Below, piece by piece: positions 5,849 through 39,906 of a DNA stretch of 64,000 nt (positions are counted from its first letter, which is position 1; each line of letters opens with the position of its first letter). The translations under genes and the position numbers were made by a program. Source of the stretch: Naegleria gruberi (Eukaryota). The DNA lies in assembly GCA_000004985.1 (NCBI GenBank), contig GG738858.1. One strand, 5' to 3'. Under the pieces are notes generated by a model, which was not told the origin of the DNA, did not search any database, and saw only the letters and a list, made by a program, of their open reading frames with translations.

Positions 5849-6226
5849 TTACAAGCCTAGAGAAGCGTTTGGAAAGGAAGAACCCGATCTAATACGATGT
5901 CTAATACGTGATGGAATAAACGTTGCGCTCTTTCCTCTCGATTTTACTGATGATTTTGTATTAGTGTTATTGTTATTGTTGTTGTTATTACTCTTATTCA
6001 TCAATAAGGATTGTTTTTTAATATTGGCAATAATTTCGTGTGCTTGGAGCGGATTTATTTCCTCACTTTCATCATGAAGAAGAGAAGGACGGATGAAGGT
6101 AGAATAATTAGCAAATTGATGATGGTGATGATTAAATAATTGTTTGGTGGTTGAGGTTGTACAACTGTTGAATTGCACTCGAAGCGAAAGCTTTCCAGAT
6201 TTGAACATTTTTTTGTAATAATGCAA
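5849..6226 (-). CDS. Small low-complexity hypothetical ORF (poly-N, poly-H); doubtful
   Basis: The only support is an open frame in the 3' flank of the villin-like gene. No recognizable domain. Confidence 0.15.
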   Translation of the reverse strand: MHYYKKMFKSGKLSLRVQFNSCTTSTTKQLFNHHHHQFANYSTFIRPSLLHDESEEINPLQAHEIIANIKKQSLLMNKSNNNNNNNNTNTKSSVKSRGKSATFIPSRIRHRIRSGSSFPNASLGL

Positions 6227-13080: not shown

Positions 13081-16000
13081 ATGGGAGCATCAGGATCAGT
13101 ACCCTCAAAAAACAGAATTCAAAGCTCGGATCAACCACCAACCTCAGCAAGGGTTACTGGTAAAATTACAAACACTGTAACACAAGTAGAACAAAATCGT
13201 TCTGAGATTCCAATCATTCCCGAAGCTGTTCTTCAACACACCAAAACATCTTCACTCCGTAGATTCAATATTAAAAGTTATGAAAAACATGATGAAGAGA
13301 TTTTGAATGATTGGTCGAACATATTGCATAAAGGTCATAAGGCAAATATAATTCCTGGAGATGGTCTTGATTATAGTGCAAATACGTTAGAACCACACAT
13401 TCTATTTTCTGATCTTGTTCAATCTGTTGATGAGCATGACATATTAAAGGGTGTAAGAGTGAGGGAACACCAGGTTGTACTTATAACAGTTAAGGGATAC
13501 GCAAGTCCTATTGCAAGTTGTTTGAGAATGGAGAGATATTGCGATGGAAGTGATAATGAAACTACTACAGTCTTTTCAAAGGTGCAAACACTTGCTTGCA
13601 TTGCACACGACCAAAAACTGTCATCAATTTTACAAAACTCTATTCTCCCATCTATTACTATTGATCAAACCAAGCTACCTTCAAACAGAGTTAGCGATAC
13701 TTCTAAGCCAATAGTAAGCATTCCAACTGTTGGAGAATTTGAAAAGATTATGACTTTTACTGAAGAGTGCTTGATAAAAATTGAAGCTGGTATGGAATTT
13801 TCAATAGAAAATATCAGTACATATATGTGGACATCTCTTGGTATTCCTTTGCTTCATTTTGCAGTCTCAGTCGATAATATTGCTGCCGTTAAAAAACTAT
13901 TGGATTGTGGGGCAAGAATTGAAAATAAGGACTGCTTTGGGAGAAACGCCCTTTTCTATATTAGAAGTCACAATGTTGCAACAATATTGATCCAAAAGCT
14001 AACTGAATTGGATTTGCTTGAGAGCGAAATATGCTCTGTAGATACAAATTCACAATTGATATCACATGTGTTGGTCTCTAATTATTACACCAATCCTGGA
14101 TTGACCAAATCAGTGTTATTAGAAATTTCAAAGAGTATTTCAAAAGAAATGTGCATTAGTCTTTTTAATTCTCTAAATGGTAGCTCAAAAACAGCAATTG
14201 ATGTTTTGAATTCTCAAGTTTATAATTATGCCAAAAAGTTCAAAAATACTTCTCATCACACCCTAATGACTTATTTATTTGAAGAAATCAAATGGCAAAT
14301 AGAAAACAAGATGAATTTTCACCAATTACTTCAAACCAAATTGATTACTGGAGGATCGTTGTCCTTCTTTTCAGAGGCTGCTAGCGAAGAGAACATAGCA
14401 CTTTTGCACTACTTACTTGAAAACAGAATAATTGATAATGATATTGACATTTCTGAATACATTACTAGTGTACATGTAGCTAAAATGGTTGTTCAATTGG
14501 TCCCTGAGATTTTTGATAGATATATACATGATAATACTGAAAATACTTCTTCAAGTAGTGCCTTGTCGAGAGTAATTCTTAATATGCGATCAGGAAATAT
14601 TCCTCTAATCAATTTTATAATTGAGCAATATGACTACAAGCTTTTGCCCCAAGAAATTAATCAAATTATTGAACTTGCAATCAATAAGAGGACACAAACC
14701 AAGATGATGCCTGTACTTGAAAAGTGTATCAGTAATGTAACTGATTCGTCATTAATAGTTCAAACCAATAGCAAAGGAGAGATTTTTTCCAAACTGAAAA
14801 AAGCAAATACTTTCACCCTTTGTTCTCCATTTGAGTTCATTTTGTCTTTGGATAGATCAGTTTCAGATGGTGTAGCAAAGATTGAGAAAGTAATGTGGGA
14901 TAGAATCAAATCGATAGCAGCAACAGATGATTCTACTCGCTCTTTGCTACTAAACTCGTGCGGATGCATACTTTCTGTATTAATCAAAAACAAGAAGCTT
15001 GATATGATAGAGGATGTTGTTGCTTACTTGCTCAAATTTGGATTAACAGTAGGAAATCTATCTTCTAATACTGGCCACCACAAATGGTCTCAAGAGGATA
15101 TGATTTATAATTCAATTAGTTCATTATTTCACAGAAAAGAAGATGTAATTTCCGGTCTCACCTTACCGCTCTTAAAATCCTTGATATCAGTTACCAGAAA
15201 CAGAGAGGATCTTCAAACTCATATTCTTATTTTAGCTCTTTACATTAAGAAAGCTGATATTTCGACATTGAAAAAGCTTCTGACTTTAACCCTTTCATTC
15301 CCTTGTTTTGGCAATGAATTCGAAATAACTGACGATTTGAAGGTACAATTTCTTGATTTTGATGACCTCAAATTGAAAAAGTTTGTTCAGCCATGTACTA
15401 GACTTGAAAATCTTCCTCCAGTATGTGAATCTGTTCATATTGAGTTGAGTCTAGACAAATCAAGAAAATCAGAAGTTTATCCTCTATTAATTAAGGATGG
15501 AGTGGTTCAAAAAGACTACGATATTTTCATAGAAAAATGTGATATCACATTCTTCAAGAAAATGGCTGACAATATCTATACTGAATATTATTGGACTGAC
15601 TTAGTTCAGGATTTTTGTACTTTGGTTCTAGAGAAAAATTTTAAAGATGTCACTAAATTGGAGTATTTAATTAAGAAAGATCCCGAATGTATCAATGACA
15701 CAATGAAATTGTGTATTATTAAGGATTATTTGGGACAAAATATTCCAATTGATATATACACAGAGATCGCATCTCTTGGTGAGGTAAATGAAAGCTCTTT
15801 CGAGATGTGGAAAAAGTGCTATGCAAAAAATAAGAATATTAGTTGGAATTCTGTTAAAACTCTGCTGTTAAAAGGTAATATCCCCTGTGCAATAGCCACT
15901 GGATTGTATAGATTGGATCTTTTGGAAAAGATAATCCCTGATATCAAATTGTTAAAACAATCAGAATTGATGGATATTTGTCAATATTTAATACTTTCCA

Positions 16001-17739
16001 TCAAACCAAATACAGAAATTAAGAGGCGGCAAATTGAAACACTTACTGATACCATAGTGCAAACACTTACAGAAGAGTCAATTTTAAATTTACTTCCAGA
16101 TGCAATCAAGAAAGCCAATTGTGATGCCCTTCAAAAAATAATTCACAGGATTGAAGAAATAGGGTTGACTATTAATTGGGAAGATACTGGAATTATAGAG
16201 GGAATTCTAAACTCTCTTAGAAGTGGTTGCGACAACTTACTGTTTACTCTTCTCTCAAGTAAGAGTTTGACTTTGGAGAGATTGCTTAACCTTAAAAGCC
16301 AAGAAAATATGGCTGAGCAACCGATTCATGCAATTTGCTTTGGTGGGTGTGTAAAATCGCTACAATATATTTATGAAACACTCCCCAAAGATTTGTTGGT
16401 GCCATATTTTTTCAGTGTACTAGAGTTATATCCTCAATCATCTAATCAAAGTGGTCAGGATGATGAATTTGAAGACTATGAACACCTGCCATTCAGAGAA
16501 CTATCTGTGCCAACATTTTCCCTTCTTAGTTCAAATGTAAAAATGAACAATTTAGTGTTTGAGATTATGAGGGATATTGCTATGACAACACCTATTCCAA
16601 AATCAATTTTTGGAAATTGGGATTACGACCAAAACATTTTCCAAAGATTGATGACCTCTAAGAATCAAGTTGTTTTTAATACATTCAGACCATATACAAT
16701 TGGAAAATCTTGTAAGTTATAGTCTTGCTGTAATATTTACATTATATTAGTGTGGATGCAACATTTGGTTGATCATGAAGAAATTTACCTTAAATCTGTT
16801 GAAGAATATGGAGAAAACGCGAAGGTCTTTATTAGAATGATTATAGTTAATCTAATATTTGGAGATGAAACCTCATTTAAAGGATCACCTGAAGACAAGA
16901 AATTATGGGTTGATTTCTTTAGATGCTATTTCAGGTTAAAGTGTTTCAGAGATGGCGATTTTAATATTTTCTTGCAAGGTTTTAAGAACTTAACAGAAAA
17001 GGAAGTTCTCTTTGCTTTGCAAGATTATTTCTATGATATGGAAAAATCAAAGATAGCCACCGAATTATTAGAAATTATGAAATTCAACCCTAAAGGTAGT
17101 TCAGAAGAAGTACCAAGATCTTACTATTTAGTGGATATAATTGTAAAAGAATGGGACAACCTTCTTAGATATATTTTAGATGTAGTGAATGAGAGTGAGG
17201 AAATAGAAAATCAATTCTGGACAATGAGAGAAGATTTAGAACTCTCTGTAAAATATCTTAATCCAAAATATGAGAACAAATGTGTAGAATTATTGTTTGG
17301 AAAGTGTAAATTTTTGGGAGAGGAAACTCATGATTTACTTTATTGTGAGAATCAAAGCAGAATTGTAACAGTTAGTGATGAAATAAGAATTGCTGAGTTG
17401 CGAGGAAAAGTATTAAGAGGCAAGGTTTGGAGCTACAGAAAAGCTGAACGAGATGTTGGTCAATATGTTTATCAAAAAGTTAAATTTGAACCTCCTCTTC
17501 CTAAATTCTCTGAAGAGCAAGCTAAAATTCTCACAAGTATTAGTGTATTTGGAGATGTTGAAAATATGATTGGGCACGACAATGACATTACTGAAATACA
17601 TGTCATTGTTACAAATTCAGCACAAAATCTAAAGAGCAGTATTGAAAATGGCATCTTATTACTAAGAGTTTATTTAGAAAAGGAAACCATCCAAGTAGGA
17701 GAATTAGAAGGTGGTAACAAATACCATGGTTTTAATTAA
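13081..17739 (+). CDS. Large (~1540 aa) hypothetical protein with an MGASGS N-myristoylation motif and an ankyrin-like segment, 2 exons
   Basis: ATG at 13081. Exon 1 is 13081..16711, ending TCT T|gtaagt. The 39-nt intron is 16712..16750 (..tattag). Exon 2 is 16751..17739 and reads t+TG = Leu, then WMQHLVDHEE. The track's GTG start at 16750 is in the same phase, so the two track ORFs join in frame. Confidence 0.55.
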
Positions 17740-18668: not shown

Positions 18669-19455
18669 CTAATTTCTCCTAGTTGTTTGAGGTGAATCTG
18701 ATTTAATGATAATATCTTGAGCGTTTAAATAAGTAGACATTAACTTCTCAATGGATTCAGATTTGATATTTGCCACAATCTCATCAAACTCCAACTCGGG
18801 GCATACTTCTCCAAAATTTGCAAACCATGCAAGTATCCATTTATCTTCATCTTCTTTCCTATACAATACACTCTTCTCCGAAACATCAAAATTCAAATTT
18901 CCAATGTAATATTCATCAAGAATGAATAACTCTACAGAATTATCTCCAAATGGATATTCAATTGAATACTTTTCCATATTATTAATTTCCTTAGCAAGAT
19001 AACTCTCATATCTGTACTTGATTGTTATTGTTCCAGAAGTTGCCTCCTTTAATTGTATCGTTTTTTCATAGTCTCGAGATGTCTTTAATTCTTCTGCTTT
19101 TAATTTCAAACTTGCTTTTCCAATAGTATCCTTAATATTTAAGAATTAAATATATTATATAAATAATTCTTACATTCTTTGTGAATTTATCAAAATCAAA
19201 TACTGTAAATTTAATCTTAATTCCCTTTCCGTAATCATCAATCTTCGCCAACTCACTCTCAAAATCACAATTCCAGGTTGGATTAAGGCTCTTCATCACG
19301 ACTGGAGTTTTCCCTGAGAAGGCCAAAGCCTTGCAATCTCTTCCAATGATAGACACTTCCACAAATCCATCACTTGTTCCTCCTACATCCGATACCATCA
19401 AATTATTTCCTCTAATAACGGTCAAATGGAATGTGTCTTTACGATGAAATGGCAT
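18669..19455 (-). CDS. C2-domain protein, 2 exons
   Basis: Exon 1 (19455 down to ~19174) encodes a C2 fold (TSDGFVEV...KTPVVMKSLNPTWN). It ends AAG AAT|gtaaga, followed by a ~43-nt intron ending ttaag. Exon 2 (~19130..18669) begins DTIGKASLKLKAEEL in phase 0. The track's start for the downstream ORF is TTG. Coordinates of the junction are good to about +/-2. Confidence 0.55.
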
Positions 19456-19537
19456 TTTTGTTTTTTAATTCTATTGTAATTATGTACATTATATTTAATA
19501 ATTTTGAAAACTTAATAGGAAAACAAATAGATCTCCA

Positions 19538-21166
19538 CTAATTTGATGTTCTCAATTTAAAATCACTAAAGTCAATACCCATAACACTATATCTAATCTT
19601 CTTAATGGTATCTTGATCTTTTGCTCCGTTAAGTGAGAAGAAACAATTATCCCTCAATCGACCATTCTCCTCAATTACTTCAACCTCTGTATCGCCAATC
19701 ACAACAAATGATCTGTCGAATGCTTTCAATAGCCAAAAATCTTGATTACCTTCAACAGTTTTGAAATATTCGAGTGAGTCGATAAAATTGCAAAATATGT
19801 TGAGTGATTTTCTATTCTTAAAAGTAGAGGAGTTCTTGTTGGTGTAATCATTGGAAATATTAGTCTTACTAATCATATCTCTCAAAATTTCAGAGAAATA
19901 GAATGTTCGGTCAACTTTTCCATTCCTTAAATTATCAAAATACTTGTCAAAGCATTCACTCTTTGGAAGTTGCAAATTCAAAGCAGATAGTACCTCAGAT
20001 GTGAAATGTTGGCAATTGGCTTTGAATTGGTGATATTGAACTGATCCATTATATTTACAAATAATTTCAGTCAACTTTCTAAATGTTTGCTTAACATTCT
20101 CAGCACCACGTATTTCTCCAATGTCAATTGCTGCAATTGTCTTGTCAGATTTGATTTGTTGAATAGAGTCACTCCTTACAATAACAGTTGATGAGTTGAA
20201 CCATTCAATCTTCCATTCACCAATTAAAAGGCCAGTATGAACAATTCCCATATCAGCATTTGAAAAGTAGCTCATTAACTTGGTCATAAAAGGACTATTA
20301 CCTAAATCAGAAATCAACAACTTGACTCGCAGAAATGGTTCACAATTAAGCTTCTTTGAATTTTGCTTAACAATAGAACTCATAAATTCCCTATTCAATA
20401 ATCTATCTTCACACACCAAGTTTTGAGCATCCACTTCCAAATCGCCTGTCATTCTAGCATCTTTGGGAGTTCTATTATTCTTTCTCAAGAAATCATAATA
20501 TTTCTCTAACTTTTTCTTGGCCATTCCAACTCGATCCTTTTCTAAAAGAGTTAATCTGTTTGCACTATATTGGACATCGGTTGTGGTTGGGTACGCAGTA
20601 GCATCAATAATAGCAGGTGTTGGAGAAATACTTGGCTTTGAGAAAAGTGTTTCATTGATTGATTCAAAAGTTTTGTTGGGTTTGTTCACTGGGTTGACAG
20701 AGGTAGAATTCTGGCCAGCTTGACCATCTGATTCCAAAGTATCTTCCGAGACATTTAGTACTAATCTATTCGAATCATCTTCAAACTTGACTCTTCCACT
20801 CTTTTCATCATCAATTTTCTTCTTCATGATAACTTGTTCCAAAAACACAATTGCAGAAATATTATCAATCTTGTACTTGGACATCTTTTGTTGCAACAGT
20901 TCCTTTTCTTGTTGAATTTTGGCATAATTAGTTTCCTTTGCCAACCCTTCGAATAACTTTCCATTAAAATCATTGTTCATTGTTACAGCATTTATGACAG
21001 TATCGTTCTTGAAATTGTAATGAATACATAAACAAAACAAGTCCCTATTGCTACATTCTCGAAGAGGTTTTGCCTCTGCCTCTTCAATCTCATCACTGGG
21101 TGGACTGATTTCTTCAGAGAATCTAATAATACTTGACGTGTTGCCCATTTTTTTAAATTGTATCAT
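19538..21166 (-). CDS. Hypothetical protein, likely N-myristoylated (MGNTSS at the second in-frame ATG, 21148)
   Basis: A 542-aa ORF with ATGs at 21166 and 21148. No recognizable domain. Its C-terminal ~160 aa is paralogous to the fragment at 22188..22670. Confidence 0.55.
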   Translation of the reverse strand: MIQFKKMGNTSSIIRFSEEISPPSDEIEEAEAKPLRECSNRDLFCLCIHYNFKNDTVINAVTMNNDFNGKLFEGLAKETNYAKIQQEKELLQQKMSKYKIDNISAIVFLEQVIMKKKIDDEKSGRVKFEDDSNRLVLNVSEDTLESDGQAGQNSTSVNPVNKPNKTFESINETLFSKPSISPTPAIIDATAYPTTTDVQYSANRLTLLEKDRVGMAKKKLEKYYDFLRKNNRTPKDARMTGDLEVDAQNLVCEDRLLNREFMSSIVKQNSKKLNCEPFLRVKLLISDLGNSPFMTKLMSYFSNADMGIVHTGLLIGEWKIEWFNSSTVIVRSDSIQQIKSDKTIAAIDIGEIRGAENVKQTFRKLTEIICKYNGSVQYHQFKANCQHFTSEVLSALNLQLPKSECFDKYFDNLRNGKVDRTFYFSEILRDMISKTNISNDYTNKNSSTFKNRKSLNIFCNFIDSLEYFKTVEGNQDFWLLKAFDRSFVVIGDTEVEVIEENGRLRDNCFFSLNGAKDQDTIKKIRYSVMGIDFSDFKLRTSN

Positions 21167-21192
21167 GTATTTTGATCATCTGCTGTCTTTTT

Positions 21193-21211
21193 CACGTTTT
21201 GGAAACGTGAT
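21193..21211. promoter_or_regulatory. Palindromic AAACGTGA pair (TCACGTTT-tgg-AAACGTGA), ~30-45 bp upstream of the 19538..21166 gene
   Basis: Read directly. The same octamer recurs upstream of the 47664..48611 and 49947..50894 genes. Confidence 0.4.
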
Positions 21212-22187
21212 CGGACCTTTTGAAGCATTGTAATGAACAATTTTGTCTGATAAGAAGAAAATTCCAATCGAGAAGTTTGGGACTCAATTCTTTAATGGCA
21301 TGGTTAAGTAATTGAATAAAAAGACTACAGCACCACAGGTTCCCAAGTTGTCTCCAACCTCAGTACTGATGTGGCTCGACGATGCTTAACTTCTCAAATC
21401 GGACGGGATGAGGTGCATTCATCGTGATATGGCCGTAGCCATTCACATTCTTAAAAAGTTATTCATAAACAACTACCTTAATGATTAAATTAAGAAATTG
21501 GTTAAATCAATGCAAAAGGAATATAAGTTGAAAACGATTTCAATTGTTAATTTGGACGGGAAGCCTGCCAGGAATATGGCGACAATCCCGCTACAGTCTT
21601 TGACTGTATGAACAGTGAAGTCAAGAGTTCTTGGACGAATCTTGTTTGTTCAGGTTATTGAAGAAAGTAAAAAGGTCGATCACTCTTCTACTTATTGATC
21701 ATTTGATATGATGAATTGTTCCATGAAAATTGTTGAATTAAATAGAGGTCACTATTTTCCCTTCCATTTATATATTCTTCATCATGATCCTTAATAAAAT
21801 CTATTAAACCGTCACGAATGTTTAAAAATACATCTGCCTCATACCATGATAAGCAAATATTTCCATGTTGTTTTTCAATATAATATGATATTTGATTTGA
21901 AATTATTTCAAATTGATAAAGAAATACAAGCATATCAATATTTTAATCTTTAACTTGACATGATAAAATAGACTTGTTAAAAAAATCAAATCATATATTG
22001 GCGAAGGTTCTTCCTCATCAATATATTTTATTAACAAAGATTCAACTTTAATTTGTAATATTGTAAGTCTTATCACCTTAATATCTGAATGAGAAATATT
22101 ATTATCTATAACAAATTCTTAATACAATTATTCTTTTATCACCAAAGTAATTGAGCAATTGTTGAAAGAGTAAATAACAATCATTTA

Positions 22188-22670
22188 TTACCTCTTTAAT
22201 ACACAATCACTGAAATCAACATCTTTAACACTGTACTTGATATGAGTGATGGAATCTTGATCTCTTCCTCCATTAGTTGTGAAGAATCCATTCTCTTTGA
22301 CTCCTGTAGAATCAAAAGTAAGACAAATTTCATCCTCCCCAACCAAAACAAATGACCTATCAAATGCCTTCAAAAGCCAAAAATCACTTTGACCTGCCTC
22401 AATGTCAAAATATTTGATATGTTCAAGAAAATGACAAAATTCATCCAATGATTTTCTATTCTCGAATCTAATGTTCTTCAAACCAATATAAGGGTTTGTA
22501 ATGTTGCATGTTTTAAATAATGTTGCCAAATTTTCATTCACAAAGAAAGTTCTGTCAGTTTCTCCTCTTTTCAATTTGTCAAAATAAATTTTGAAAGATT
22601 CACTCACTGGAAGTGTCAAATTCAATGCCTCTAATAAATCTGAAACGAAATGTTGGCAATTAGCCCCCAA
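22188..22670 (-). pseudogene. Truncated paralog (C-terminal ~160 aa) of the 19538..21166 gene; a gene fragment or terminal exon of a disrupted copy
   Basis: About 50% aa identity to the C-terminus of the neighbouring gene (ANCQHF..DRTFF..FWLLKAFDRSFV..). The track start is TTG. There is an in-frame TAA 10 codons upstream. Only ~290 bp separate it from the (TA)n tract and the retroelement, which is too short for the missing ~380 N-terminal aa. Confidence 0.4.
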
Positions 22671-22782
22671 TAATGAATAATCTTAGTAATACCGTTTCAG
22701 TTTTACCTAGTTGTAATAAACACCGGAAATTTATTTATGATTTTAACAATAAAAGCTGAAAGTAGTTAAATGATGATATTTG

Positions 22783-22786
<4 letters not shown>

Positions 22787-22821
<35 letters not shown>

Positions 22822-22822
22822 A
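22787..22822. repeat. (TA)18 microsatellite
   Basis: atatatat... run read directly. Confidence 0.9.
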
Positions 22823-22962
22823 ATTGATGTTAGATATTAGTTGTTCCATTTATTTTTAAACTACTCCATCAACCTCCATGAATCTAGTTGTCTATTTCTT
22901 GTTGTAAGAGTTTTTCTTTGTTTTAATTAACAACTATCACAACTCTACTTTTACTACTTCTA

Positions 22963-23067
22963 ATGTTCTTATCGAAGTTTACTGAGATAAAGTAGTGTTT
23001 CTTGAAAACAACAATTGAATAAACTAATAATAGAAAGTATGCTCAAAAAAATTGTCATACTATGGTC
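22963..23067 (+). repeat. Split direct repeat A1 of the retroelement (105 bp)
   Basis: Identical copy at 26999..27103. The gag ATG (23062) lies inside its 3' end. Confidence 0.85.
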
Positions 23068-24189
23068 GCTAAGAAGCCTCAAGATATTGACTCCTCTTCA
23101 TCTGATGAAGATCTCCCAGCAGTTGAAGTAGAATACCCCACAACACCAGTGAAAGCAAGAAAACAACAAGCTGCTAAGAAGCTTAGAAAGTTAAAGGCCA
23201 TGTCACCTGTAGCTAATAGAAATAAGCGCAAACAATCTACTTCAGTTTCATCATCTAACAGTGCCTTAGATGATGGTATTTCAACTGTTGTTTCCAGTTC
23301 GTTGCTAAGCAATTCAACTTTGTTGGATAGTTCTTCAACTGCACCCTCTTCGTCAAACAATTCGTCTTCTTCCAATTCAGGTAGAGATAGTTTTGCCAGT
23401 AGTTCATCTGAACATGATATCATGGCGATCAAAGCCCAAATGCAAGAAATGATTGGAGTTTTGAGAACCGTAACAGGAAATATCTCTGAACTTACTAAGA
23501 AAGTTCAGGAGAGAGAAGAAGAATCAGATGATGATTTTGTTAATCCAGAAGCTATATCTCCAGAAGTTTGGTTACGTCAAACTTATAGAGACCTTAGAAG
23601 TTCTTACAATGTTCCTTCATCTATTGGAGATGATTTATTACTTTCTGCAGTATCCTCCGAGATACTTAAAGACCGTAAACAAGAGGAGACCAAGAGAAGA
23701 ATTCAATATTTGCTCCTTAAATACAAGGATGTGATTTCCAAGTTTGCCCCAGACATTAGATTGGATGAGATTAACAGTATTGGTTATTCTAAACTAGTAG
23801 AGTTAACTCAAATCAAAATTGAATTGTTGGAATATGCATTGAATTCTCCACTTGATTTTACAGTCATGACAGAGATTACAGAACTTTGTAGAATGATTTG
23901 CAAAGTTGAAGCCCTCTTCCTTAAAGAAGGTTTACAAGTTTCCACTTTCGATGTTGGTAGAGAATTCCTTAACAGATACATTTCTACTAATAGTTTCGAA
24001 ACTGCTGCCGAAAGTGAACTTCATAATATTAGAACAACATATCATTACTACAAAGCAACCAAGCAGCAACAAGGTCCAAAGGGAATTACCAAGAAGTATT
24101 CTAAGAAGAAACCGTTTCAAAAGAAAAACAATAAGGGTCAAGGAAACGGTGGTAAATTCCAAGGAAAAGATAAGGATAAGTCAGAATGA
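23062..24189 (+). CDS. Retroelement ORF1 (Gag-like; Ser-rich N-terminus, coiled-coil, basic C-terminus)
   Basis: ATG inside repeat A1. 375 aa. A basic KKYSKKKPFQKKNNKGQGNGGKFQGK tail is typical of nucleic-acid-binding Gag. Confidence 0.6.
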   Translation: MVAKKPQDIDSSSSDEDLPAVEVEYPTTPVKARKQQAAKKLRKLKAMSPVANRNKRKQSTSVSSSNSALDDGISTVVSSSLLSNSTLLDSSSTAPSSSNNSSSSNSGRDSFASSSSEHDIMAIKAQMQEMIGVLRTVTGNISELTKKVQEREEESDDDFVNPEAISPEVWLRQTYRDLRSSYNVPSSIGDDLLLSAVSSEILKDRKQEETKRRIQYLLLKYKDVISKFAPDIRLDEINSIGYSKLVELTQIKIELLEYALNSPLDFTVMTEITELCRMICKVEALFLKEGLQVSTFDVGREFLNRYISTNSFETAAESELHNIRTTYHYYKATKQQQGPKGITKKYSKKKPFQKKNNKGQGNGGKFQGKDKDKSE

Positions 24190-26062
24190 CTCTTCCACTC
24201 CCTCCTTCCAAGGAGGAAGATTACAACAGTTTTGGAAAAAGTGGCAAATCTTCCCCAAAACTGTTGCAGAATGGATAAGAGAGGGTATTCCAATCCATTC
24301 AGAAAAAGAAAAATGGATCGATATTCCACTAAGATCTCATTTTTCAGAAAAGGAAGATTCATGGTTAAAGAGCGAAATCTCAGATTTACTCAAAACCAAT
24401 ATTATAGAAATTGGAAACAAGGACACTGTCATAAATCCGATTCACGTGGTTCCGAAGAAAGGCAAAGACCAGTTTCGTCTAATCCTAGATTTGAGATCCA
24501 TAAATGCTGGTATAAACAACGACTCATTCAAAATGGATCATATTCACAAAACTCTAAAGTTTCTATCAAAAGACATGTTAGGAATCAAAATAGATTTGAT
24601 GAAAGGTTATCATCACGTTCCAGTGAAGGAAACAGATCGAAAGTTATTGGGATTCAGGTACAACGGCCAGATTTACCATTACAAGTGCCTACCATTCGGT
24701 CTGAACATTGCTCCAAGATTATTCTCCAAGATAATGAAGGTCTTAGTTCAAAGATGGAGAGTAAGAGGAATCTCGGTATTCATTTATTTAGACGATATCT
24801 TAGTGGTAAATCATTCAAAAGATCAGTTGATCTTAGACAGAGATATAGTTCTAAAGGATTTAGAAGAGTTTGGATTCCTCATTCAAAAAGACAAATGTTG
24901 TTTAAATCCAACTCAATTAATAGAATACCTAGGAGTTTTGTTAGACTTTCATCAAGGTTTGGTAAAAATTCCAGAAGACAAAAGGATTACAGCTTTAGAA
25001 TTCATAGAGGAGCTACTCAATGCTTCCCAGAAACGGCTTTATGTTCCATGCAAGAGAGTTGCCAAGTTCCTAGGAAAGTTGGAATTTCTAACAATTGCCA
25101 ACAAGTACCTTTCACCATTCATGTGTCGTCTTCGAAAGAACATGGTTTCAGTAGTATCAGGAAGAGGTTGGCACGCATCAATGCAAATTCACAAAGGCGC
25201 ATTCAAGGATTTATTGATTCTAAGGGAGTTAATTCAAAAGAACGATGGTCATCCGTTCGAATTGGATTGGATTCTCCCAGTGATTGTGAATTCAGATGCA
25301 ACACCTCAAGGTTTCGGCATTCACTCAGGTTCAATCGTTACTGTTGGAAAGTTCAATGGAGAAGAGCACATCAATGTCAAGGAACTAAGAGCCTTACTGC
25401 TTTATTTCAAACAAGCAGACGAATTAAATCTTTATCCAGATTTCACAAATTTCGAATTGAGAGTAGACAACATGGTAGCCGTGGCATATCTAAAGAAGGG
25501 TTATGGATCAAAAGACGATCTCGCAAAGATAGCAAGAGACATCTCAAAGATTCTAATGAGAAGAAATTGGTGGATTTGCAAAGTGATTTACATCCCATCC
25601 AAACAGAATTTCCTAGCAGACAGGTTGAGTCGATTGATGGATTGGGGATCCACCAAGGAACTAATCGAATTAGTCAACCAAGAATTTGGAATACACCATG
25701 TGGACAGATTTGCAACAACGAGTTCGGCAACTACCCTTGTATTCAATTCATGGAAAGAGAACGACGCGTTCAAAAGTCTTTGGGAAAAAGAACTAGTGAG
25801 TTATTGTGTTCCTCCAATAGGATTGATCAGTCAAGCTCTCATTCATCTTATCAAATCCAGATCAATAGCGACATTTGTAATTCCAGAATGGAGCTCCTCG
25901 ATTTGGTGGCCTCTACTCTTAAAGCTATTAAAGAAGAGAAAAAGTATCACAAGAAGGATGCTTTTAATCAAACTATTATCCGAATTATGGATCAAATTCG
26001 AAGGAACGACGTTCATAATTGCTCATCTGGATGGAAACTTATACTTCAAACCAGAGATTTAG
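23906..26062 (+). CDS. Retroelement pol ORF: reverse transcriptase, RNase H, and the DIRS-type C-terminal HVDRFAT..PP..WW domain
   Basis: The RT motif is FIYLDDILVVNHS (YxDD). The RNase H motif is NFLADRLSR. The C-terminal segment has HVDRFATTSSATTLVFNSW..YCVPPIGLI..PEWSSSIWWP. The frame is open from 23906 with a TTG in the track. The first ATG is at ~23951. It overlaps gag by ~280 nt, so expression is by frameshift or internal start. Confidence 0.75.
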   Translation: MKPSSLKKVYKFPLSMLVENSLTDTFLLIVSKLLPKVNFIILEQHIITTKQPSSNKVQRELPRSILRRNRFKRKTIRVKETVVNSKEKIRISQNDSSTPSFQGGRLQQFWKKWQIFPKTVAEWIREGIPIHSEKEKWIDIPLRSHFSEKEDSWLKSEISDLLKTNIIEIGNKDTVINPIHVVPKKGKDQFRLILDLRSINAGINNDSFKMDHIHKTLKFLSKDMLGIKIDLMKGYHHVPVKETDRKLLGFRYNGQIYHYKCLPFGLNIAPRLFSKIMKVLVQRWRVRGISVFIYLDDILVVNHSKDQLILDRDIVLKDLEEFGFLIQKDKCCLNPTQLIEYLGVLLDFHQGLVKIPEDKRITALEFIEELLNASQKRLYVPCKRVAKFLGKLEFLTIANKYLSPFMCRLRKNMVSVVSGRGWHASMQIHKGAFKDLLILRELIQKNDGHPFELDWILPVIVNSDATPQGFGIHSGSIVTVGKFNGEEHINVKELRALLLYFKQADELNLYPDFTNFELRVDNMVAVAYLKKGYGSKDDLAKIARDISKILMRRNWWICKVIYIPSKQNFLADRLSRLMDWGSTKELIELVNQEFGIHHVDRFATTSSATTLVFNSWKENDAFKSLWEKELVSYCVPPIGLISQALIHLIKSRSIATFVIPEWSSSIWWPLLLKLLKKRKSITRRMLLIKLLSELWIKFEGTTFIIAHLDGNLYFKPEI

Positions 26063-26967
26063 GGATGTTGGTTTCGATTAAGGAAGAAACCTTCAAACTT
26101 TACACTAGAAACTATAATGGTTTCTTATGGTTTATTACTGCATTCAATATTTCAATGGATGACCCTTATGCTATTGAGTATTATGCAGCTTATCTTACAA
26201 TTCAAGGTCAAACATCTCGTGTTGAAGCCTTGAGACCATCCCTTCAATTTTGGGCCAATATTGAGAGAAGAGTTTTTCCAATTTCATGGTCTTATGATAA
26301 GATTAAAAGAGGAATTACTCTTATTTGGTCCTTGATTGATAGAAAAGCTTTGAAACGTGATCCAATTTTCTATCATCATATTGAAGGTTTCATTCAGAGA
26401 AAAGATCATTATGATCCTTTCATTTTCAAACTCACTAGTGCCATGTTAGTCATTGGTTTCAGACTTTTCGCTAGACCAGGTGAATTAGCTAGACTCAAGT
26501 GGGGTTATGTTACAAAGCTTAGAAATGGTAACATCAAATTAGATCTCAGTGGTCACAAAACAGATTTCTTTCTACTAGAAAAGCCGATTACTATTGACAA
26601 GCATCTTGAAAATCCTTCAGTGTGTCCAGTGAAATTGCTTTTTGATTACATAGACACTGTACAGCATTTCAAAAAAGCAGATTCACCATTGTTTTCATTG
26701 CAGGACAATATTTTCTTCAACACTGAAGATGTTTCTCAACTTATCAAGAATGCTATGTTCTCTGTTGATTCAGAAATCACTGTTTCTGGTCACAGTTTAC
26801 GTATTGGTGCAACTACTGAGAGTATTATCAAGGGAATTCCTACTCAGGATATTATTATGGGGACTAGACATAAGGATGTGAAATCTTTACAACCTTATCA
26901 AAGACAAGAAGCTCTTGCAGCTCGCCACTTGTCTACTACTCTCCTTTCTCGGGACAATATCCATTAG
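24232..26967 (+). CDS. Retroelement ORF with a C-terminal tyrosine recombinase domain (~26063..26967); its N-terminal 1.8 kb is an overprinted open frame over pol
   Basis: The C-terminal 300 aa contain ARPGELARL, GHSLRIGATT (HxxR) and a downstream Tyr, as in DIRS/Ngaro YRs. The upstream part is a 600-codon stop-free frame overlapping the RT frame. It translates as R/S/K-rich low complexity. Confidence 0.55.
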   Translation: MEKVANLPQNCCRMDKRGYSNPFRKRKMDRYSTKISFFRKGRFMVKERNLRFTQNQYYRNWKQGHCHKSDSRGSEERQRPVSSNPRFEIHKCWYKQRLIQNGSYSQNSKVSIKRHVRNQNRFDERLSSRSSEGNRSKVIGIQVQRPDLPLQVPTIRSEHCSKIILQDNEGLSSKMESKRNLGIHLFRRYLSGKSFKRSVDLRQRYSSKGFRRVWIPHSKRQMLFKSNSINRIPRSFVRLSSRFGKNSRRQKDYSFRIHRGATQCFPETALCSMQESCQVPRKVGISNNCQQVPFTIHVSSSKEHGFSSIRKRLARINANSQRRIQGFIDSKGVNSKERWSSVRIGLDSPSDCEFRCNTSRFRHSLRFNRYCWKVQWRRAHQCQGTKSLTALFQTSRRIKSLSRFHKFRIESRQHGSRGISKEGLWIKRRSRKDSKRHLKDSNEKKLVDLQSDLHPIQTEFPSRQVESIDGLGIHQGTNRISQPRIWNTPCGQICNNEFGNYPCIQFMERERRVQKSLGKRTSELLCSSNRIDQSSSHSSYQIQINSDICNSRMELLDLVASTLKAIKEEKKYHKKDAFNQTIIRIMDQIRRNDVHNCSSGWKLILQTRDLGMLVSIKEETFKLYTRNYNGFLWFITAFNISMDDPYAIEYYAAYLTIQGQTSRVEALRPSLQFWANIERRVFPISWSYDKIKRGITLIWSLIDRKALKRDPIFYHHIEGFIQRKDHYDPFIFKLTSAMLVIGFRLFARPGELARLKWGYVTKLRNGNIKLDLSGHKTDFFLLEKPITIDKHLENPSVCPVKLLFDYIDTVQHFKKADSPLFSLQDNIFFNTEDVSQLIKNAMFSVDSEITVSGHSLRIGATTESIIKGIPTQDIIMGTRHKDVKSLQPYQRQEALAARHLSTTLLSRDNIH

Positions 26968-27103
26968 TTTATTTATTGTTGGTTTTCTTTTAAGAAACAT
27001 GTTCTTATCGAAGTTTACTGAGATAAAGTAGTGTTTCTTGAAAACAACAATTGAATAAACTAATAATAGAAAGTATGCTCAAAAAAATTGTCATACTATG
27101 GTC
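26957..27103 (+). repeat. Internal B1 (26957..27000) and A2 (26999..27103) junction of the split direct repeats
   Basis: B1 equals B2 (27778..27821) and A2 equals A1. The B1/A2 abutment is the hallmark internal junction of Ngaro/PAT-like elements. Confidence 0.8.
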
Positions 27104-27777
27104 CCACCCTTGCCCACCCTCTATTATTATTAGTTTATTCAAATCAAAGGTTCTAACCTTTGTCCTTAATACTTTGGAATGTGATTTTTTAACCAATCCT
27201 CAAATATTTTCTCAATTGATTGAAAGATTTCACTCTATTTGTATTATTGAAAGATGATTGTTATCATCTTTTTATCTTTGTATTATTATTTGATATTTGA
27301 CATCATTTATTGATGTTTTTTATCATGATTGGTGATCTAAAACCAATTGTTGGTGATCTAAAACCGACAGATCAACTTTATGTTGATTAGAAGGTATCTG
27401 ATACCTTTCCCTTACTATTAGTAAGGCAATATGTACTGAACATACCTCTTTTCTCATTCTCGTTTTGATTCGTAAGTGTCAAGACGGTTGAGTAGGTTTT
27501 TTAATTCTTAACTTTTTAGTTTTTACCGATTTTTTTTTTTTTTCCTACAAGAGTAGGTTTTTTTATATGGGAGTTGTTTCTCCAAAAAACAACTTGGTTT
27601 ATTGTCAGATTGCTTTAATTTAGTTTAGTTTTTGCTTTTTGTTAAGAAATCATAGTATGATTGTATTGATTAGTTTATTTAATTTCTGGACCTGCTGAAT
27701 AAAGCTTAATGCCTAAAAACAGCAGTAACCAGGCTACAAACTACCTAAGAATAGGTAGAAGTTGTAGTGTGAGCTTT

Positions 27778-27821
27778 ATATCCATTAGTTTATTTATTGT
27801 TGGTTTTCTTTTAAGAAACAT
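27778..27821 (+). repeat. Split direct repeat B2 (element 3' terminus)
   Basis: A 44-bp copy identical to 26957..27000. Confidence 0.8.
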
Positions 27822-36148: not shown

Positions 36149-37828
36149 TTATTGAGATGGAGTTGAAGGATTCAACCATGGTTTAGTCACTCTTGATACT
36201 GCCTTTTCAGATTGGAGGAAGGAGAGCAAGAGGCCATAATTAGTGATTGGAACACCTGCTTTGGATAGGTCAGAGAGACGGGCATTCATCTTTTGCTTAT
36301 CAATCATACATCCTCCACAGTGAATAATGAGTTTGTATTGGGAGAGATCCTTAATAAGCTGATACTCTCTGCCAAAGACAATATCCACCTTGATATTTCC
36401 CTGTCCAAATCTTTTTTCAATTGCTCTTGGTATTTGAACAGTACCGATATCATCTGCAATTCTGTTGTGATTACAAGCTTCACAGAGTAAGACTGAATCG
36501 CCTGGTTGGAGAGCTTTGAATGCTTCAATTCCTTTCAAAAATTCTGAAAGTCTTCCATTACTCATAAAGTTAATCATAATGACACTGAATGTAGTGATAT
36601 CAATAATACTCTCCTTTGTTGCCTCATCAATAGTCCATGGATGCACAATATCCATAGCTTGCGAGTCGGTAATTAAGAGTTGTAATTTTCCATTTGAATT
36701 AAGAGTTTTGATGGCTTCGAGGAATCTCTTCTTCTCCTTTTCCACAAGCTCCTTATCCGAACTTCTTGCATGTTTCAAATTCATTCTATATGAAAATACA
36801 TTGCTATACTCCCTGAGTAAATATTCATGAACCATGGCTTGAGGTTTGAGTAATCTACCAGATGGTGTCTCCTCATCCATTGGAATATTCAAAAATACAG
36901 TAGAGTTTTCCATTAAATTTGGAAGTAATCTTGTTGGATACATTGGAGTAGAGCTTGCCTTCATTTTACTCTTCTTGTGGCAATCTTCAATGAACTTGAT
37001 ACATTTGGTGTGAGCAATTTTTGATTCCAAATCCACACATGTAGTTCCACAGAAGTACTTATTCATTTGAACATTTCCCTGTTGCTCAAATTCATTGACT
37101 TTCAAATCAGTTTCAATCGAATCCAGCTTATCACTCAAACTCTCCACAGATGATCTCTTCAACTCGGAAACATTGAATATAATACAGAATGGTCTTTCAT
37201 TCTTTTCACACTCACCAGTCAACCATTTGGCTTGTTGAACACTGCTACCATTGAAAGGATCCACCACTACAACCACAATATCGGACTCTTTAAGGGCAAT
37301 CAGTGTTTTTTGTCTCTTCTTTTCGCCAAGATCTGATGCCTCATCAGTACCTGGTGTATCAAATAACTTTGTTGGACCAATACCGTGCAACTCCATAGTT
37401 GTCATCTTTACATCAGCAGTTGTACCAGGTGTAGAATCCACAATACTAGTATTTGAATTGGTCAAACAGTTCATCAGAGTTGATTTTCCACTATTCATAG
37501 CTCCAACAATTGCAATATTTGTCCTTTCAATGTAAATCGAGCCAATATTATTAGCACTATCACTTAAACTCACTCCAGAATGGAATAATTGTTTAGAATT
37601 CATTGAAAATTCCTTCATCATTATCTTTGTATTCATCATCATTTTCCATTCCGATGATCTTTTCACAGCTGATAATAATGGAAAATCCAACAATGAATTA
37701 CATTGTTGTATTGGCAATGATCTCCTCACAAGAGGTGAGGAACACAATGTTCGGATCAAGTGTTGTTGATGTGATTTCATTTTTTTAAAGTGCTTTTTCA
37801 TAAAACTAACCTTTTTAGTAACTTTCAT
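36149..37828 (-). CDS. hydF: [FeFe]-hydrogenase maturation GTPase HydF with a basic, Ser-rich N-terminal extension (organellar targeting-like)
   Basis: ATG confirmed at 37828. The GTPase region has G1 IAIVGAMNSGKSTLMN, G2 DSTPGTTAD and G3 LFDTPGTDE. The C-terminal FeS-binding signature is CEACNHN ... HCGGC (CxH...HCxxC), which is diagnostic of HydF rather than Era/EngA-type GTPases. The ~100-aa K/R/S-rich leader (MKVTKKVSFMKKHFKKMKSHQQHL...) precedes the GTPase region. Confidence 0.7.
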   Translation of the reverse strand: MKVTKKVSFMKKHFKKMKSHQQHLIRTLCSSPLVRRSLPIQQCNSLLDFPLLSAVKRSSEWKMMMNTKIMMKEFSMNSKQLFHSGVSLSDSANNIGSIYIERTNIAIVGAMNSGKSTLMNCLTNSNTSIVDSTPGTTADVKMTTMELHGIGPTKLFDTPGTDEASDLGEKKRQKTLIALKESDIVVVVVDPFNGSSVQQAKWLTGECEKNERPFCIIFNVSELKRSSVESLSDKLDSIETDLKVNEFEQQGNVQMNKYFCGTTCVDLESKIAHTKCIKFIEDCHKKSKMKASSTPMYPTRLLPNLMENSTVFLNIPMDEETPSGRLLKPQAMVHEYLLREYSNVFSYRMNLKHARSSDKELVEKEKKRFLEAIKTLNSNGKLQLLITDSQAMDIVHPWTIDEATKESIIDITTFSVIMINFMSNGRLSEFLKGIEAFKALQPGDSVLLCEACNHNRIADDIGTVQIPRAIEKRFGQGNIKVDIVFGREYQLIKDLSQYKLIIHCGGCMIDKQKMNARLSDLSKAGVPITNYGLLLSFLQSEKAVSRVTKPWLNPSTPSQ

Positions 37829-37971
37829 TATCTAAAAAGAACTCGACAGAATTTTGTAAAATTGCTGCATTCTTTACAATTAGAGAATCCTATTATTTCA
37901 ATAATAAGTTATGAATTTAATCTAGATTTCATTTTGGTTACTGTTTTGAAAATGCTGAAAATAATTCAAAT

Positions 37972-39462
37972 TTAGAAGGATAGGTTGAGAATGGATATTT
38001 CTGGTGGGCAGAATAATCGAAGAGGATAATGACTTCCTAAACCAGCAGAGGTGTGAATAAATTGTCTCCTCTCGATTTTGTAAGTTCTGTAAATGAGTTT
38101 GATTTGATAATCATCAGCCGAGTCGACTACATCAATATTTCTAGCTTGTTGTTTGTGATGATGGAGCACACTGTCGATGAGTGTAGAATCGTCCTGCAAT
38201 CTCAATTCATATAGACCAACTCCCCATTCCCAATACTTGCAAACATTCAATAGTCTTTGAACAATTCTCAATCCACTAATTCGTTGCCTTACAAATTTCC
38301 ACAGAGTAACCTTCTTGTAAATGAAAATAATTATTGGAATTATAGGAAGGTAGGTGAATATTCCTTCATTCATCTGATGAACCTGTTCATAGGAAAAATG
38401 ATGTTGAACAAAATGATCAAATGTTGCTTCCTTTACACTAAGTTTCCAAAAGAGTCCTAGTACGTTTTTCAGAATTATTGAAGGTATTGGTAATGTCACT
38501 TGGCCACCTAAATATTTGATAAATGAAATATGTTAAATATGTTAAAATTTAAAGAAAATATCGAACATACCATGAGTGTGTCCACACAAAACCAAATCAA
38601 AATGGAAAACGTCATTCTTAATCCAAGCAACAGTGTCTGGGTTGTGGCTCAATACAATTCTCAAAGTATTCTCCTTGATAGGACTCTCGTTCATTTCCTT
38701 TACAATTTTATGATAATTATCCCAATAGAGTGGACTGTAAAAATCTAAAAATCCCCACAACTCAATATCAAACTTGAATTCCTTAGTTTCCTTTGTAACT
38801 TTAGCAAAGAATTGATGATTATTAGCTTTTGAACCAGCATCTAATATTGTGACAGCTCTTGATAATTTTTTGATTACCTCCTCCTTATCGAGAGGATGGG
38901 TCTTACTCTCATCATGATTTCCTAACACTGCAAAAACTCCCAACTCTGAATATTTTGATAATTTAGAGAAGAAATTATCCACAACCCAATCCACATCAAC
39001 CTTGTAAAATTTATCAACAAAATCTCCAGTCAATACTATCATGTCAATATTTGGAATGTATTCAATTTCCACAAGAATATCCTTCAATTGTTGTTTGCTA
39101 ATCTTATGATATCGAACGTGTCGTCTCAACCAATACCAACAAGCCCAGATTTTAGTATAATACGAACCTGCTGATCCCAACCAATCTGGAGGATCTGCAT
39201 AATAATCAAAATGAAAATCAGTCAAATGTAATATTTTCAGTCGGCGTCTATTTACATGATTAGTTTTCAAGAAGGAAATTGCATCTACATCAGACAAATT
39301 AATATAATGTTCCTTGATATATAATTTACTAAACACATTCAACAATGGAAAGGTAATCCACTTGAATAATTGTACCAAAATTATTAAATATTCATATAAC
39401 AACATTCCGATCACTGATAAAAACGTTATGTTTCCATGTTTCTGCTTTGATAGTTTTTTCAT
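37972..39462 (-). CDS. Membrane-anchored metallophosphoesterase (calcineurin-like phosphoesterase; GDxxD/GNHD/GHTH), 2 exons
   Basis: ATG at 39462. An N-terminal TM helix is present. Exon 1 is 39462..38571, ending CAT G|gtatgt. The 63-nt intron is 38570..38508 (..atttag). Exon 2 is 38507..37972, beginning GT GGC CAA GTG (..CGHTHG-GQVTLPIPSI..). The phase-1 join was verified. Confidence 0.65.
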
Positions 39463-39906
39463 TTTTTTTTAATTTAAAAATCAAGAAATGTAGTTGAATG
39501 ATCAATTTCGATTTTTCTTATTTGCAAATATTATTGTAAATAGATTCAAGTAGTTGAAGCTCTAGTTGAAATACTACGTGTTTTCAATATTGTTGTGTGA
39601 TCATTGGAAAATAAAACGTGTCTTTTCCAGATTGTGGAAAATTCAATGCCTCGAATACTATGGAATATTGATCAATTTCTCATATTTATATATTTGAATA
39701 GGAGTATTGGAAGATTGGACAAGTTTTAAAGGTCAACCAAGAGTTTCACATGTGATGATGTTGAACAGTCCAGTCCCGTTGTATTTAAAATTTTTACATC
39801 TTCAAGTGACCTTTAGCATGCTTCATGAGATGAGCTGTTTTTTTCACCTTTGAAATCTTAAATGGTAAATCTTCTCCAAAAAGTATCTGTAAATATATGT
39901 ATCTGT

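What the first reader, a model, noticed from the sequence alone, without database searches (positions are those of the whole stretch)
21193..21211. AAACGTGA octamer shared by promoters of several minus-strand genes
The octamer occurs as a palindromic pair (TCACGTTTtggAAACGTGA) upstream of 19538..21166. It occurs once upstream of 47664..48611 and three times upstream of 49947..50894. A longer AACGTGAATTG is shared between 48667..48684 and 53633..53643 (the DUF262 gene). The ACGTG core resembles G-box/E-box/ABRE bZIP or bHLH sites. It may mark a co-regulated set that includes the N-myristoylation-motif genes.
Basis: seen in the sequence. Interest (0 to 1): 0.5.

Follow-up and report, generated by a model that had tools for sequence, protein, structure and literature searches.

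The report
Exact promoter octamer in Naegleria genes
An exact 8-base word (TCACGTTT, read as AAACGTGA on the other strand) sits just upstream of three or four neighbouring, species-specific genes of the amoeba Naegleria gruberi far more often than chance allows; it is most likely the binding site of a gene-specific transcription factor, which is a real but ordinary kind of feature.

Summary
The window is Naegleria gruberi nuclear DNA. The octamer is real: 12 copies against 1.4-2.9 expected, making it the top non-low-complexity 8-mer both in the whole window and in the 16.8 kb of non-coding DNA (7 against 0.5-1.0).

The copies form two populations. Four are in-frame Lys-Arg-Asp codons and one is antisense in a Myb ORF; these are coding noise. 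Seven lie 17-200 nt upstream of three minus-strand genes: an inverted pair (21192-21210), two copies, and three copies. A one-mismatch variant lies upstream of a DUF262 gene.

In gene orientation every promoter has a sense TCACGTTT/A starting 62-71 nt before the ATG. In three of them it abuts a TATA-like box. In two paralogues that have diverged to dS about 0.73, it lies inside a 19-nt island of perfect identity.

CACGTG itself, one-mismatch variants and AACGTG outside the octamer are not enriched.

Best reading: a promoter-proximal binding site for a sequence-specific factor, class unresolved (bZIP, bHLH or Myb). The G-box/E-box label and the N-myristoylation link are weakly supported. No genome-wide or cross-species test was possible with these tools.

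The parts
21192..21210 (-). Inverted pair TCACGTTT-tgg-AAACGTGA, centres 11 bp apart. It lies 44-62 nt upstream of the MGNTSS start codon (21148) of gene A. In gene orientation the sense copy starts at -62 and the inverted copy at -51.
   Evidence: As single-stranded DNA it folds into an 8-bp hairpin of -7.1 kcal/mol, z -3.8.
18672..21148 (-). Gene A: N. gruberi predicted protein with an MGNTSS N-terminus, a weak PPPDE/Peptidase_C97 domain, and C2-domain exons further downstream.
   Evidence: One search gives PF05903 at E 2e-5, below the gathering score. Searches show that model P0123 matches 21148..19751 at 100%, followed by exons at 19440.. and 19091..18672.
48662..48680 (-). Gene B proximal site. 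In gene orientation it reads TCACGTTTCGAATAAATAT (octamer plus a TATA-like box), with the octamer starting at -69 from the ATG at 48611.
48804..48811 (-). Second octamer in the B/LRR divergent intergenic region. It is at -200 from the gene B ATG and 158 nt upstream of the LRR gene ATG (48969).
47664..48611 (-). Gene B: 315-aa orphan protein with an MGQRHT N-terminus and a roughly 60-residue Gly/Ala/Val-rich hydrophobic segment.
50947..50965 (-). Gene C distal site. It has the same 19-nt island TCACGTTTCGAATAAATAT, with the octamer starting at -71 from the ATG at 50894.
50911..50936 (-). Two more sense-oriented octamers in the gene C promoter, starting at -42 and -24, each with unrelated flanks.
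49947..50894 (-). Gene C: paralogue of B (63% aa identity, 76% nt identity, dS about 0.73), with an MGQRQT N-terminus.
53632..53639 (-). One-mismatch variant. In gene orientation it reads TCACGTTA followed directly by TATAGG, starting at -65 from the ATG at 53574 of the DUF262/GmrSD_N gene. That start codon is uncertain.
51338..53574 (-). Gene D: DUF262/GmrSD_N-domain gene. It has no in-frame ATG ahead of the conserved IPEYQRPYAW motif, so it needs a short intron from the ATG at 53574 or else is a pseudogene.
48728..48744 (-). Second conserved upstream island, CTATCGTAsCAGAAATT, found only in the B and C promoters. The C copy is at 50991..51007.

Best explanation
TCACGTTT is a promoter-proximal cis-regulatory element of a small set of young, N. 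gruberi-specific genes. These are a PPPDE/C2 gene, two orphan paralogues encoding N-terminal-MG membrane proteins, and probably the adjacent DUF262 gene.

**Proposed mechanism.** A sequence-specific DNA-binding protein recognises the full asymmetric octamer. One sense-oriented copy sits about 62-71 nt before the ATG, directly 5' of a TATA-like element in three of the four promoters. From there the bound factor would help assemble the pre-initiation complex. Extra copies (an inverted partner one helical turn away in A, two more direct copies in C, a distal one in B) would raise occupancy, as in homotypic site clusters.

**Shown:** over-representation, clustering, upstream location, fixed position and orientation, and retention in diverged paralogous promoters.

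**Inferred:** protein binding, transcriptional effect, co-regulation, and the factor's class. Candidates are ACGT-core bZIP, CACGT half-site bHLH, or AACG-core Myb.
For: **Enrichment**
- 12 copies observed against 1.35 expected.
- It ranks first among non-low-complexity 8-mers in the whole window (p about 5e-7) and in non-coding DNA (7 against 0.5-1.0, p about 4e-6).
- None of 5000 shuffles gave 7 or more copies. A pair within 60 bp arose in 0.1% of shuffles and a triple never.

**Location**
- All 7 non-coding copies lie within 200 nt upstream of annotated start codons. Only 41% of non-coding DNA is that close to a start.
- A sense-oriented copy starts at -62, -69, -71 and (for the variant) -65 in four promoters.
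- The motif abuts AATAAATAT or TATATAGG in B, C and D.

**Conservation and independence**
- B and C have dS about 0.73 and 66% identity at 4-fold sites. Their upstream regions are otherwise unalignable, yet they keep a 19-nt perfect island containing the octamer.
- Flanks of the other copies are unrelated, so those copies are not duplications of a longer repeat.

**Specificity**
- The excess of AACGTG (23 against 11) is fully accounted for by the 12 octamers.
- One-mismatch variants are not enriched (18 against 15).
- The coding copies are explained separately as Lys-Arg-Asp codons.
Against: - Only three or four loci are involved, two of them paralogous, all within one 64-kb window.
- After correction for about 33,000 possible 8-mers, the single-word p-values are only borderline (about 0.01-0.15).
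- No transcription start sites, expression data or binding data are available.
- No orthologous promoters exist to footprint. The B/C family has no homologue in 5.8 billion or 1.84 billion proteins. The A family is N. gruberi-only.
- There are no octamers in 31 kb of two other Naegleria genomes, and intergenic DNA does not align between species.
- Enrichment of only the exact word, with no near variants, is sharper than usual for a transcription-factor site.
- No bZIP or bHLH gene was found in the window, and the N. gruberi proteome could not be searched.
Confidence: 0.55

Rival explanations
1. The pattern is chance plus shared ancestry. The octamer is a post-hoc pick from a small window, and its recurrence reflects paralogy of B and C and local sequence quirks, with no function.
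For: - One site pair (48673 and 50958) is homologous by descent.
- Bonferroni-corrected single-word p-values are marginal.
- The octamer is absent from 31 kb of related Naegleria loci.
Against: - It is the top-ranked complex 8-mer in both tests.
- Shuffles never reach 7 copies or a triple cluster.
- At least six copies have unrelated flanks.
- Position and orientation agree across non-paralogous promoters A, B/C and D.
- The homologous pair sits in a 19-nt perfect island although dS is 0.73.
Confidence: 0.12
2. It is a core-promoter element read by the basal machinery: a BRE-like element 5' of TATA, or an initiator of the TCA type. It would define a promoter class rather than a regulon.
For: - It has a fixed position and sense orientation directly 5' of a TATA-like box in B, C and D.
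- In C a copy lies 24-17 nt before the ATG, where a start site is plausible.
- These four promoters lack the TTACAA element that 12 of 40 other genes carry within 60 nt of the ATG.
Against: - It is present in only 3-4 of about 45 genes.
- Copies at -200 and in inverted orientation do not fit a core element.
- The multiplicity of copies is typical of activator sites.
- There is no sequence similarity to BRE (SSRCGCC).
- None of the roughly 15 gene promoters in the two other Naegleria loci has it.
Confidence: 0.13
3. It is an RNA-level element. The word lies in the 5' UTR as UCACGUUU and acts on translation or stability. In gene A it would form an 8-bp hairpin.
For: - Seven of eight copies are in sense orientation.
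- The A palindrome folds at -7.1 kcal/mol, z -3.8.
- The copies lie close to the ATG.
Against: - In B, C and D the key copy lies upstream of a TATA-like box, so it is probably not transcribed.
- The copy at -200 in B is unlikely to be in a UTR.
- Only A can form a hairpin.
- The inverted copy in A argues for recognition of double-stranded DNA.
Confidence: 0.08
4. It is a relic of a mobile or viral sequence: terminal repeats of a small transposon, or promoters carried in with horizontally acquired or giant-virus-derived genes. In giant viruses, exact octamers upstream of the ATG are the rule.
For: - The motif-bearing genes are orphans or patchily distributed (DUF262, LRR).
- The word is exact and close to the ATG.
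- Transposable elements are nearby: a DIRS-like element and a 165-nt inverted repeat.
Against: - No homology extends beyond 8 bp around the copies.
- No viral hallmark genes were found.
- GC content matches the rest of the window.
- The surrounding genes are ordinary eukaryotic genes and are syntenic with N. lovaniensis on one side.
Confidence: 0.05

Closest known systems
T/G-box AACGTG and G-box/ABRE ACGT-core elements of plants (bound by MYC2-type bHLH and bZIP factors); from established knowledge
   Same: Both contain AACGTG with an ACGT core, lie in proximal promoters and often occur in several copies.
   Different: Here the unit is a strict asymmetric 8-mer. The palindromic G-box CACGTG is not enriched. 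The organism is a heterolobosean with no characterised factor, and no binding data exist.
Yeast Pho4/Cbf1 sites (PHO5 UASp1 CACGTTTT; Cbf1/CDEI TCACGTG); from established knowledge
   Same: CACGTTT(T) with a T-flanked CACG half-site matches letter for letter. These are bHLH sites that work as single or multiple upstream copies.
   Different: The resemblance is recalled, not tested. The motif-bearing genes show no phosphate or sulphur theme. The position next to a TATA-like box is unlike a yeast UAS.
Myb recognition elements (YAACKG; Trichomonas MRE TAACGA); from established knowledge
   Same: The AACG core is present, and the gene D variant reads TAACGT. A three-repeat Myb gene lies in the window (41222..43465).
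   Different: The last consensus G is a T, and the first base is A in seven of eight copies. All 8 positions are fixed, which is longer than a single Myb site.
Promoter octamers of giant viruses (for example mimivirus early AAAATTGA); from established knowledge
   Same: Both are an exact octamer within about 70 nt of the ATG of orphan genes in AT-rich DNA.
   Different: The sequence is different. It occurs in only a few genes, with no viral genes or compositional break in the window.

Membership tests
E-box / G-box (CACGTG) site | Palindromic hexamer CACGTG | tested here: not met
   CACGTG occurs 4 times against 3.1 expected, and none is in the four promoters. The motif reads CACGTT.
ACGT-core hybrid element (T/G-box AACGTG) | AACGTG hexamer with an ACGT core in a proximal promoter | tested here: met
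   All 8 promoter copies contain AACGTG. The AACGTG excess is entirely due to the octamer.
ACGT-core hybrid element (T/G-box AACGTG) | Bound by a bZIP or bHLH dimer | not testable with these tools
   No binding data exist, and the N. gruberi proteome could not be searched. No bZIP or bHLH was found among the window ORFs.
Myb recognition element | Consensus YAACKG | tested here: not met
   The octamer gives AAACGT (4 of 6 positions) and the D variant TAACGT (5 of 6). Only the AACG core is present.
Transcription-factor binding site / regulon marker | Over-representation in upstream regions relative to matched background | tested here: met
   Within this window only: 7 against 0.5-1.0 in non-coding DNA, and 0 of 5000 shuffles reach 7.
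Transcription-factor binding site / regulon marker | Conservation in diverged homologous promoters | tested here: met
   A 19-nt perfect island is kept between paralogues with dS 0.73. A cross-species test was impossible because the genes are orphans.
Transcription-factor binding site / regulon marker | Co-expression of motif-bearing genes, and protein binding | not testable with these tools
   No expression or binding data were reachable, and no paper mentions the locus tag.
Core promoter element (Inr / BRE type) | Present in a large share of promoters at a fixed distance from the start site | tested here: inconclusive
   The distance to the ATG is fixed in 4 promoters, but the motif is present in only 3-4 of about 45 genes. 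Start sites are unknown.
Dispersed repeat / mobile element | Homology extending beyond the short word | tested here: not met
   Self-BLAST and flank alignments show no shared sequence around the copies, except between the B and C promoters.

The most novel reading that the evidence does not exclude
The exact octamer marks a lineage-specific, inducible gene battery of N. gruberi. It would consist of young orphan genes for N-myristoylated membrane and signalling proteins, plus a neighbouring DUF262 nuclease-like gene and an LRR gene, all switched by one ACGT-core factor bound next to the TATA box. On this reading the regulon was assembled recently by de novo gain of an 8-bp word, or the promoters came in with foreign (viral or mobile) DNA.
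Probability: 0.12. Interest if true: 0.5.

Novelty: new member of a known kind. Interest (0 to 1): 0.3.

Why it matters
My literature searches found no description of this word, or of promoter architecture in general, in Naegleria.

A strict, position-fixed octamer next to a TATA-like box would be a concrete handle on gene-specific regulation in this deep-branching free-living relative of the pathogen N. fowleri. It would also be a ready-made test case for how new, species-specific genes acquire regulation.

On present evidence it concerns only a few genes and is an ordinary kind of element.

Tried and rejected
**Wrong organism guess.** I first suspected Trichomonas, on the basis of HydF, DUF4116 and Myb. 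HydF is 100% identical to the N. gruberi protein, so this was rejected.

**More N. gruberi DNA.** The exact-product look-ups found no N. gruberi record. A genome-wide test was therefore impossible.

**Cross-species footprinting.**
- The N. lovaniensis locus and an environmental Naegleria locus were fetched.
- They contain no octamers.
- Their intergenic DNA cannot be aligned with the window.
- The B/C and A families have no homologues outside N. gruberi.

**Link to the 5S gene.** A 5S gene (21322..21440) or a 5S 3' fragment (48867..48912) lies upstream of two of the sites. The sequence between the 5S end and the octamer is not significantly similar in the two places, and Rfam finds nothing at 48.5-49.1 kb. 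A shared '5S-flank unit' was rejected.

**TTCGAA-containing 8-mers.** These are also over-represented, but mostly inside ORFs, so they are a coding effect.

**Structure of protein B.** The prediction had pLDDT 45 and was unusable, so no fold search was run.

**Literature.** Searches for the octamer, for Naegleria promoters and for Naegleria transcription-factor repertoires gave nothing usable. Three paper look-ups by id failed.

**Start of the DUF262 gene.** Intron enumeration for its start codon was inconclusive.

Full report
**What the window is**

The DNA is 31-37% G+C. It carries a solitary 5S rRNA gene (21322..21440, minus strand) and two tRNA genes, one of which aligns over 89 nt, longer than a standard tRNA and suggestive of an intron. 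It also carries mostly intron-poor eukaryotic genes: gelsolin, two G-alpha subunits, a proteasome subunit, HydF, a three-repeat Myb, LRR, DUF4116 repeats and DUF262.

The HydF ORF is 100% identical to the Naegleria gruberi protein, 79% to N. lovaniensis and 67% to Willaertia. The proteins next to the motif are identical to N. gruberi gene models. The window is therefore N. gruberi nuclear DNA.

**Check of the observation**

- The palindrome TCACGTTTtggAAACGTGA is at 21192..21210, one base lower than reported.
- AAACGTGA occurs 12 times on both strands. Dinucleotide shuffles expect 1.35, and 0 of 100 shuffles reach 12.
- Against order-3/4 Markov expectations (1.8-2.9), it is the most over-represented 8-mer of the window after (TA)n.
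- The three copies upstream of 49947..50894 are confirmed.
- Upstream of 47664..48611 there are two copies, not one.
- AACGTGAATTG is indeed shared by 48674..48684 and 53633..53643.

**Two populations of copies**

Five copies lie inside ORFs. The four on the sense strand are all in codon phase 0 and read AAA-CGT-GAx, which is Lys-Arg-Asp. The fifth is antisense near the end of the Myb ORF. I treat these as coding by-products.

The other seven lie in non-coding DNA. ORFs cover 74% of the window, leaving 16.8 kb non-coding. Seven copies there compare with 0.5-1.0 expected, again the top complex 8-mer.

In 5000 within-segment shuffles the total never reached 7. A pair within 60 bp arose in 0.1% of shuffles and a triple never. 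The real data contain one pair and one triple.

The signal belongs to the whole octamer:
- CACGTG is at background (4 against 3.1).
- The AACGTG excess (23 against 11) equals the 12 octamers.
- One-mismatch variants are not enriched in non-coding DNA (18 against 15).

**Anatomy in gene orientation**

Start codons are supported by N. gruberi gene models:
- Gene A starts with MGNTSS at 21148, not at the upstream in-frame ATG at 21166. It continues through introns into C2-domain exons down to 18672.
- Genes B (47664..48611) and C (49947..50894) match 315-aa models exactly.

Read in the direction of the genes, the element is TCACGTTT. A sense copy starts at:
- -62 in gene A
- -69 in gene B
- -71 in gene C
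- -65 in the DUF262 gene D, as the variant TCACGTTA. This gene's start at 53574 is uncertain.

Extra copies are:
- an inverted one at -51 in A, with centres 11 bp apart
- one at -200 in B, which is also 158 nt upstream of the divergent LRR gene
- two at -42 and -24 in C

In B and C the octamer runs straight into CGAATAAATAT, and in D into TATAGG. Both are TATA-like. Outside the octamer the flanks of the copies are unrelated.

**Descent versus constraint**

B and C are paralogues with 63% amino-acid and 76% nucleotide identity. Their dS is about 0.73, and 43 of 65 four-fold sites are identical.

Their upstream regions no longer align, apart from two islands:
- the 19-nt perfect match TCACGTTTCGAATAAATAT
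- CTATCGTAsCAGAAATT, about 55 nt further upstream

That pair of octamers is therefore shared by descent, but its survival in otherwise scrambled sequence is what purifying selection on a promoter would give. By rough calculation, a run of this length at 60-66% neutral identity has a probability of about 0.02-0.1 over the region. The remaining copies are independent gains.

A 5S gene, or a 46-nt fragment of its 3' end (48867..48912), lies upstream of A and of B. The sequence between the 5S end and the octamer is not significantly similar in the two places. The octamers are therefore not part of a duplicated 5S flank.

**What the genes are**

- The B/C family consists of just these two proteins in a 5.8-billion-protein database, and also in a full HMMER scan of 1.84 billion representatives.
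- The proteins have an N-terminal MGQR.T and a roughly 60-residue Gly/Ala/Val-rich hydrophobic segment.
- A structure prediction was too poor to use.
- Gene A's family is N. gruberi-only.

These genes are young and species-specific, which is why cross-species footprinting could not be done. The syntenic N. lovaniensis locus and an environmental Naegleria contig (31 kb together) hold no octamer, and their intergenic DNA does not align with the window.

**The N-myristoylation idea**

Five ORFs begin with MGxxx[ST]: 81..608 (EF-hand), 13081..16722, A, B and C. Three of them have the motif, but B and C count once, two lack it, and D is not an MG protein. The association is suggestive at best.

**Mechanism**

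The best reading is a binding site for a sequence-specific factor in the proximal promoter. One obligatory sense copy sits just 5' of the TATA-like element, and additional copies raise occupancy.

The class of factor cannot be fixed from sequence:
- The ACGT core suggests bZIP.
- The T-flanked CACG half-site suggests bHLH. It matches yeast PHO5 UASp1 CACGTTTT and the plant T/G-box AACGTG, but both comparisons come from memory and were not tested.
- The AACG core suggests Myb, and a Myb gene lies in the window.

Rivals:
- Chance plus paralogy.
- A core-promoter element defining a promoter class. These four promoters lack the TTACAA element seen near the ATG of 12 of 40 other genes.
- A 5'-UTR RNA element. 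The A palindrome can form a -7.1 kcal/mol hairpin.
- A relic of mobile or viral DNA.

The Rival explanations section gives the evidence and the refuting result for each.

**Limits and verdict**

All statistics come from one 64-kb window and three or four loci. After correction for the number of possible 8-mers, the single-word p-values are borderline. The clustering, position, orientation and paralogue conservation carry the case.

No paper that I could search describes this word or Naegleria promoter architecture.

The feature is a new example of a familiar kind (a promoter-proximal factor site) in an organism whose regulatory code is uncharted. A genome-wide scan would settle it quickly.

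Noticed in passing
window 21322..21440 (-) and 48867..48912: There is a solitary 5S rRNA gene (105 bits) 174 nt upstream of gene A's start codon. A 46-nt fragment of the 5S 3' end plus its T-run flank (87% identical) sits between gene B and the LRR gene. This suggests dispersed 5S genes and decayed copies in gene-upstream regions.
   Followed up: partly
window about 22780..27821: A DIRS-like retroelement with gag-like, RT/RNase H and tyrosine-recombinase ORFs. It has a 105-nt repeat at 22963..23067 and 26999..27103, and a 44-nt repeat at 26957..27000 and 27778..27821. It abuts a truncated PPPDE paralogue (22191..22682). That fragment is 98.8% identical to the C-terminus of an 893-aa kinase plus double-PPPDE protein annotated on a separate 10-kb N. 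gruberi contig.
   Followed up: partly
upstream 60 nt of many window genes (for example 5849..6208, 44148.., 44803.., 56456..59626); L001 genes at 2357, 8443, 19006: Sense-oriented TTACAA (often TTTACAAAA) is concentrated within 60 nt of the ATG. Thirteen of 24 upstream occurrences fall there, in 12 of 40 genes, while the antisense word is flat. An A-run precedes most start codons. The same is seen in 3 of 10 N. lovaniensis genes. This is a candidate general initiator-like element of Naegleria, and it is more widespread than the octamer.
   Followed up: partly
window 46690..46854 and 47347..47511: A 165-nt inverted repeat (94.5% identical) flanks about 490 bp downstream of gene B. It has a foldback or MITE-like structure.
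   Followed up: no
window 39994..40066: A cluster of AAACGT-containing near-variants lies in the large Metallophos-Myb intergenic region. Two of them run into perfect Myb-type TAACGG sites (AAACGTGTAACGG and AAACGTAACGG).
   Followed up: no
window 51338..53574 (-): The DUF262/GmrSD_N gene has no in-frame ATG ahead of its conserved IPEYQRPYAW motif. It needs a short frame-shifting intron from the ATG at 53574, or else it is a pseudogene.
   Followed up: partly
window 36149..43465; L001 5395..11632: The gene order HydF - Metallophos - three-repeat Myb is conserved between N. gruberi and N. lovaniensis. Synteny breaks on the other side of HydF, where N. gruberi has G-alpha genes and N. lovaniensis has exportin-5.
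   Followed up: partly
window 61080..61192 and 46339..46445: A 114-nt inverted repeat at 78% identity connects two intergenic regions. Its nature was not examined.
   Followed up: no
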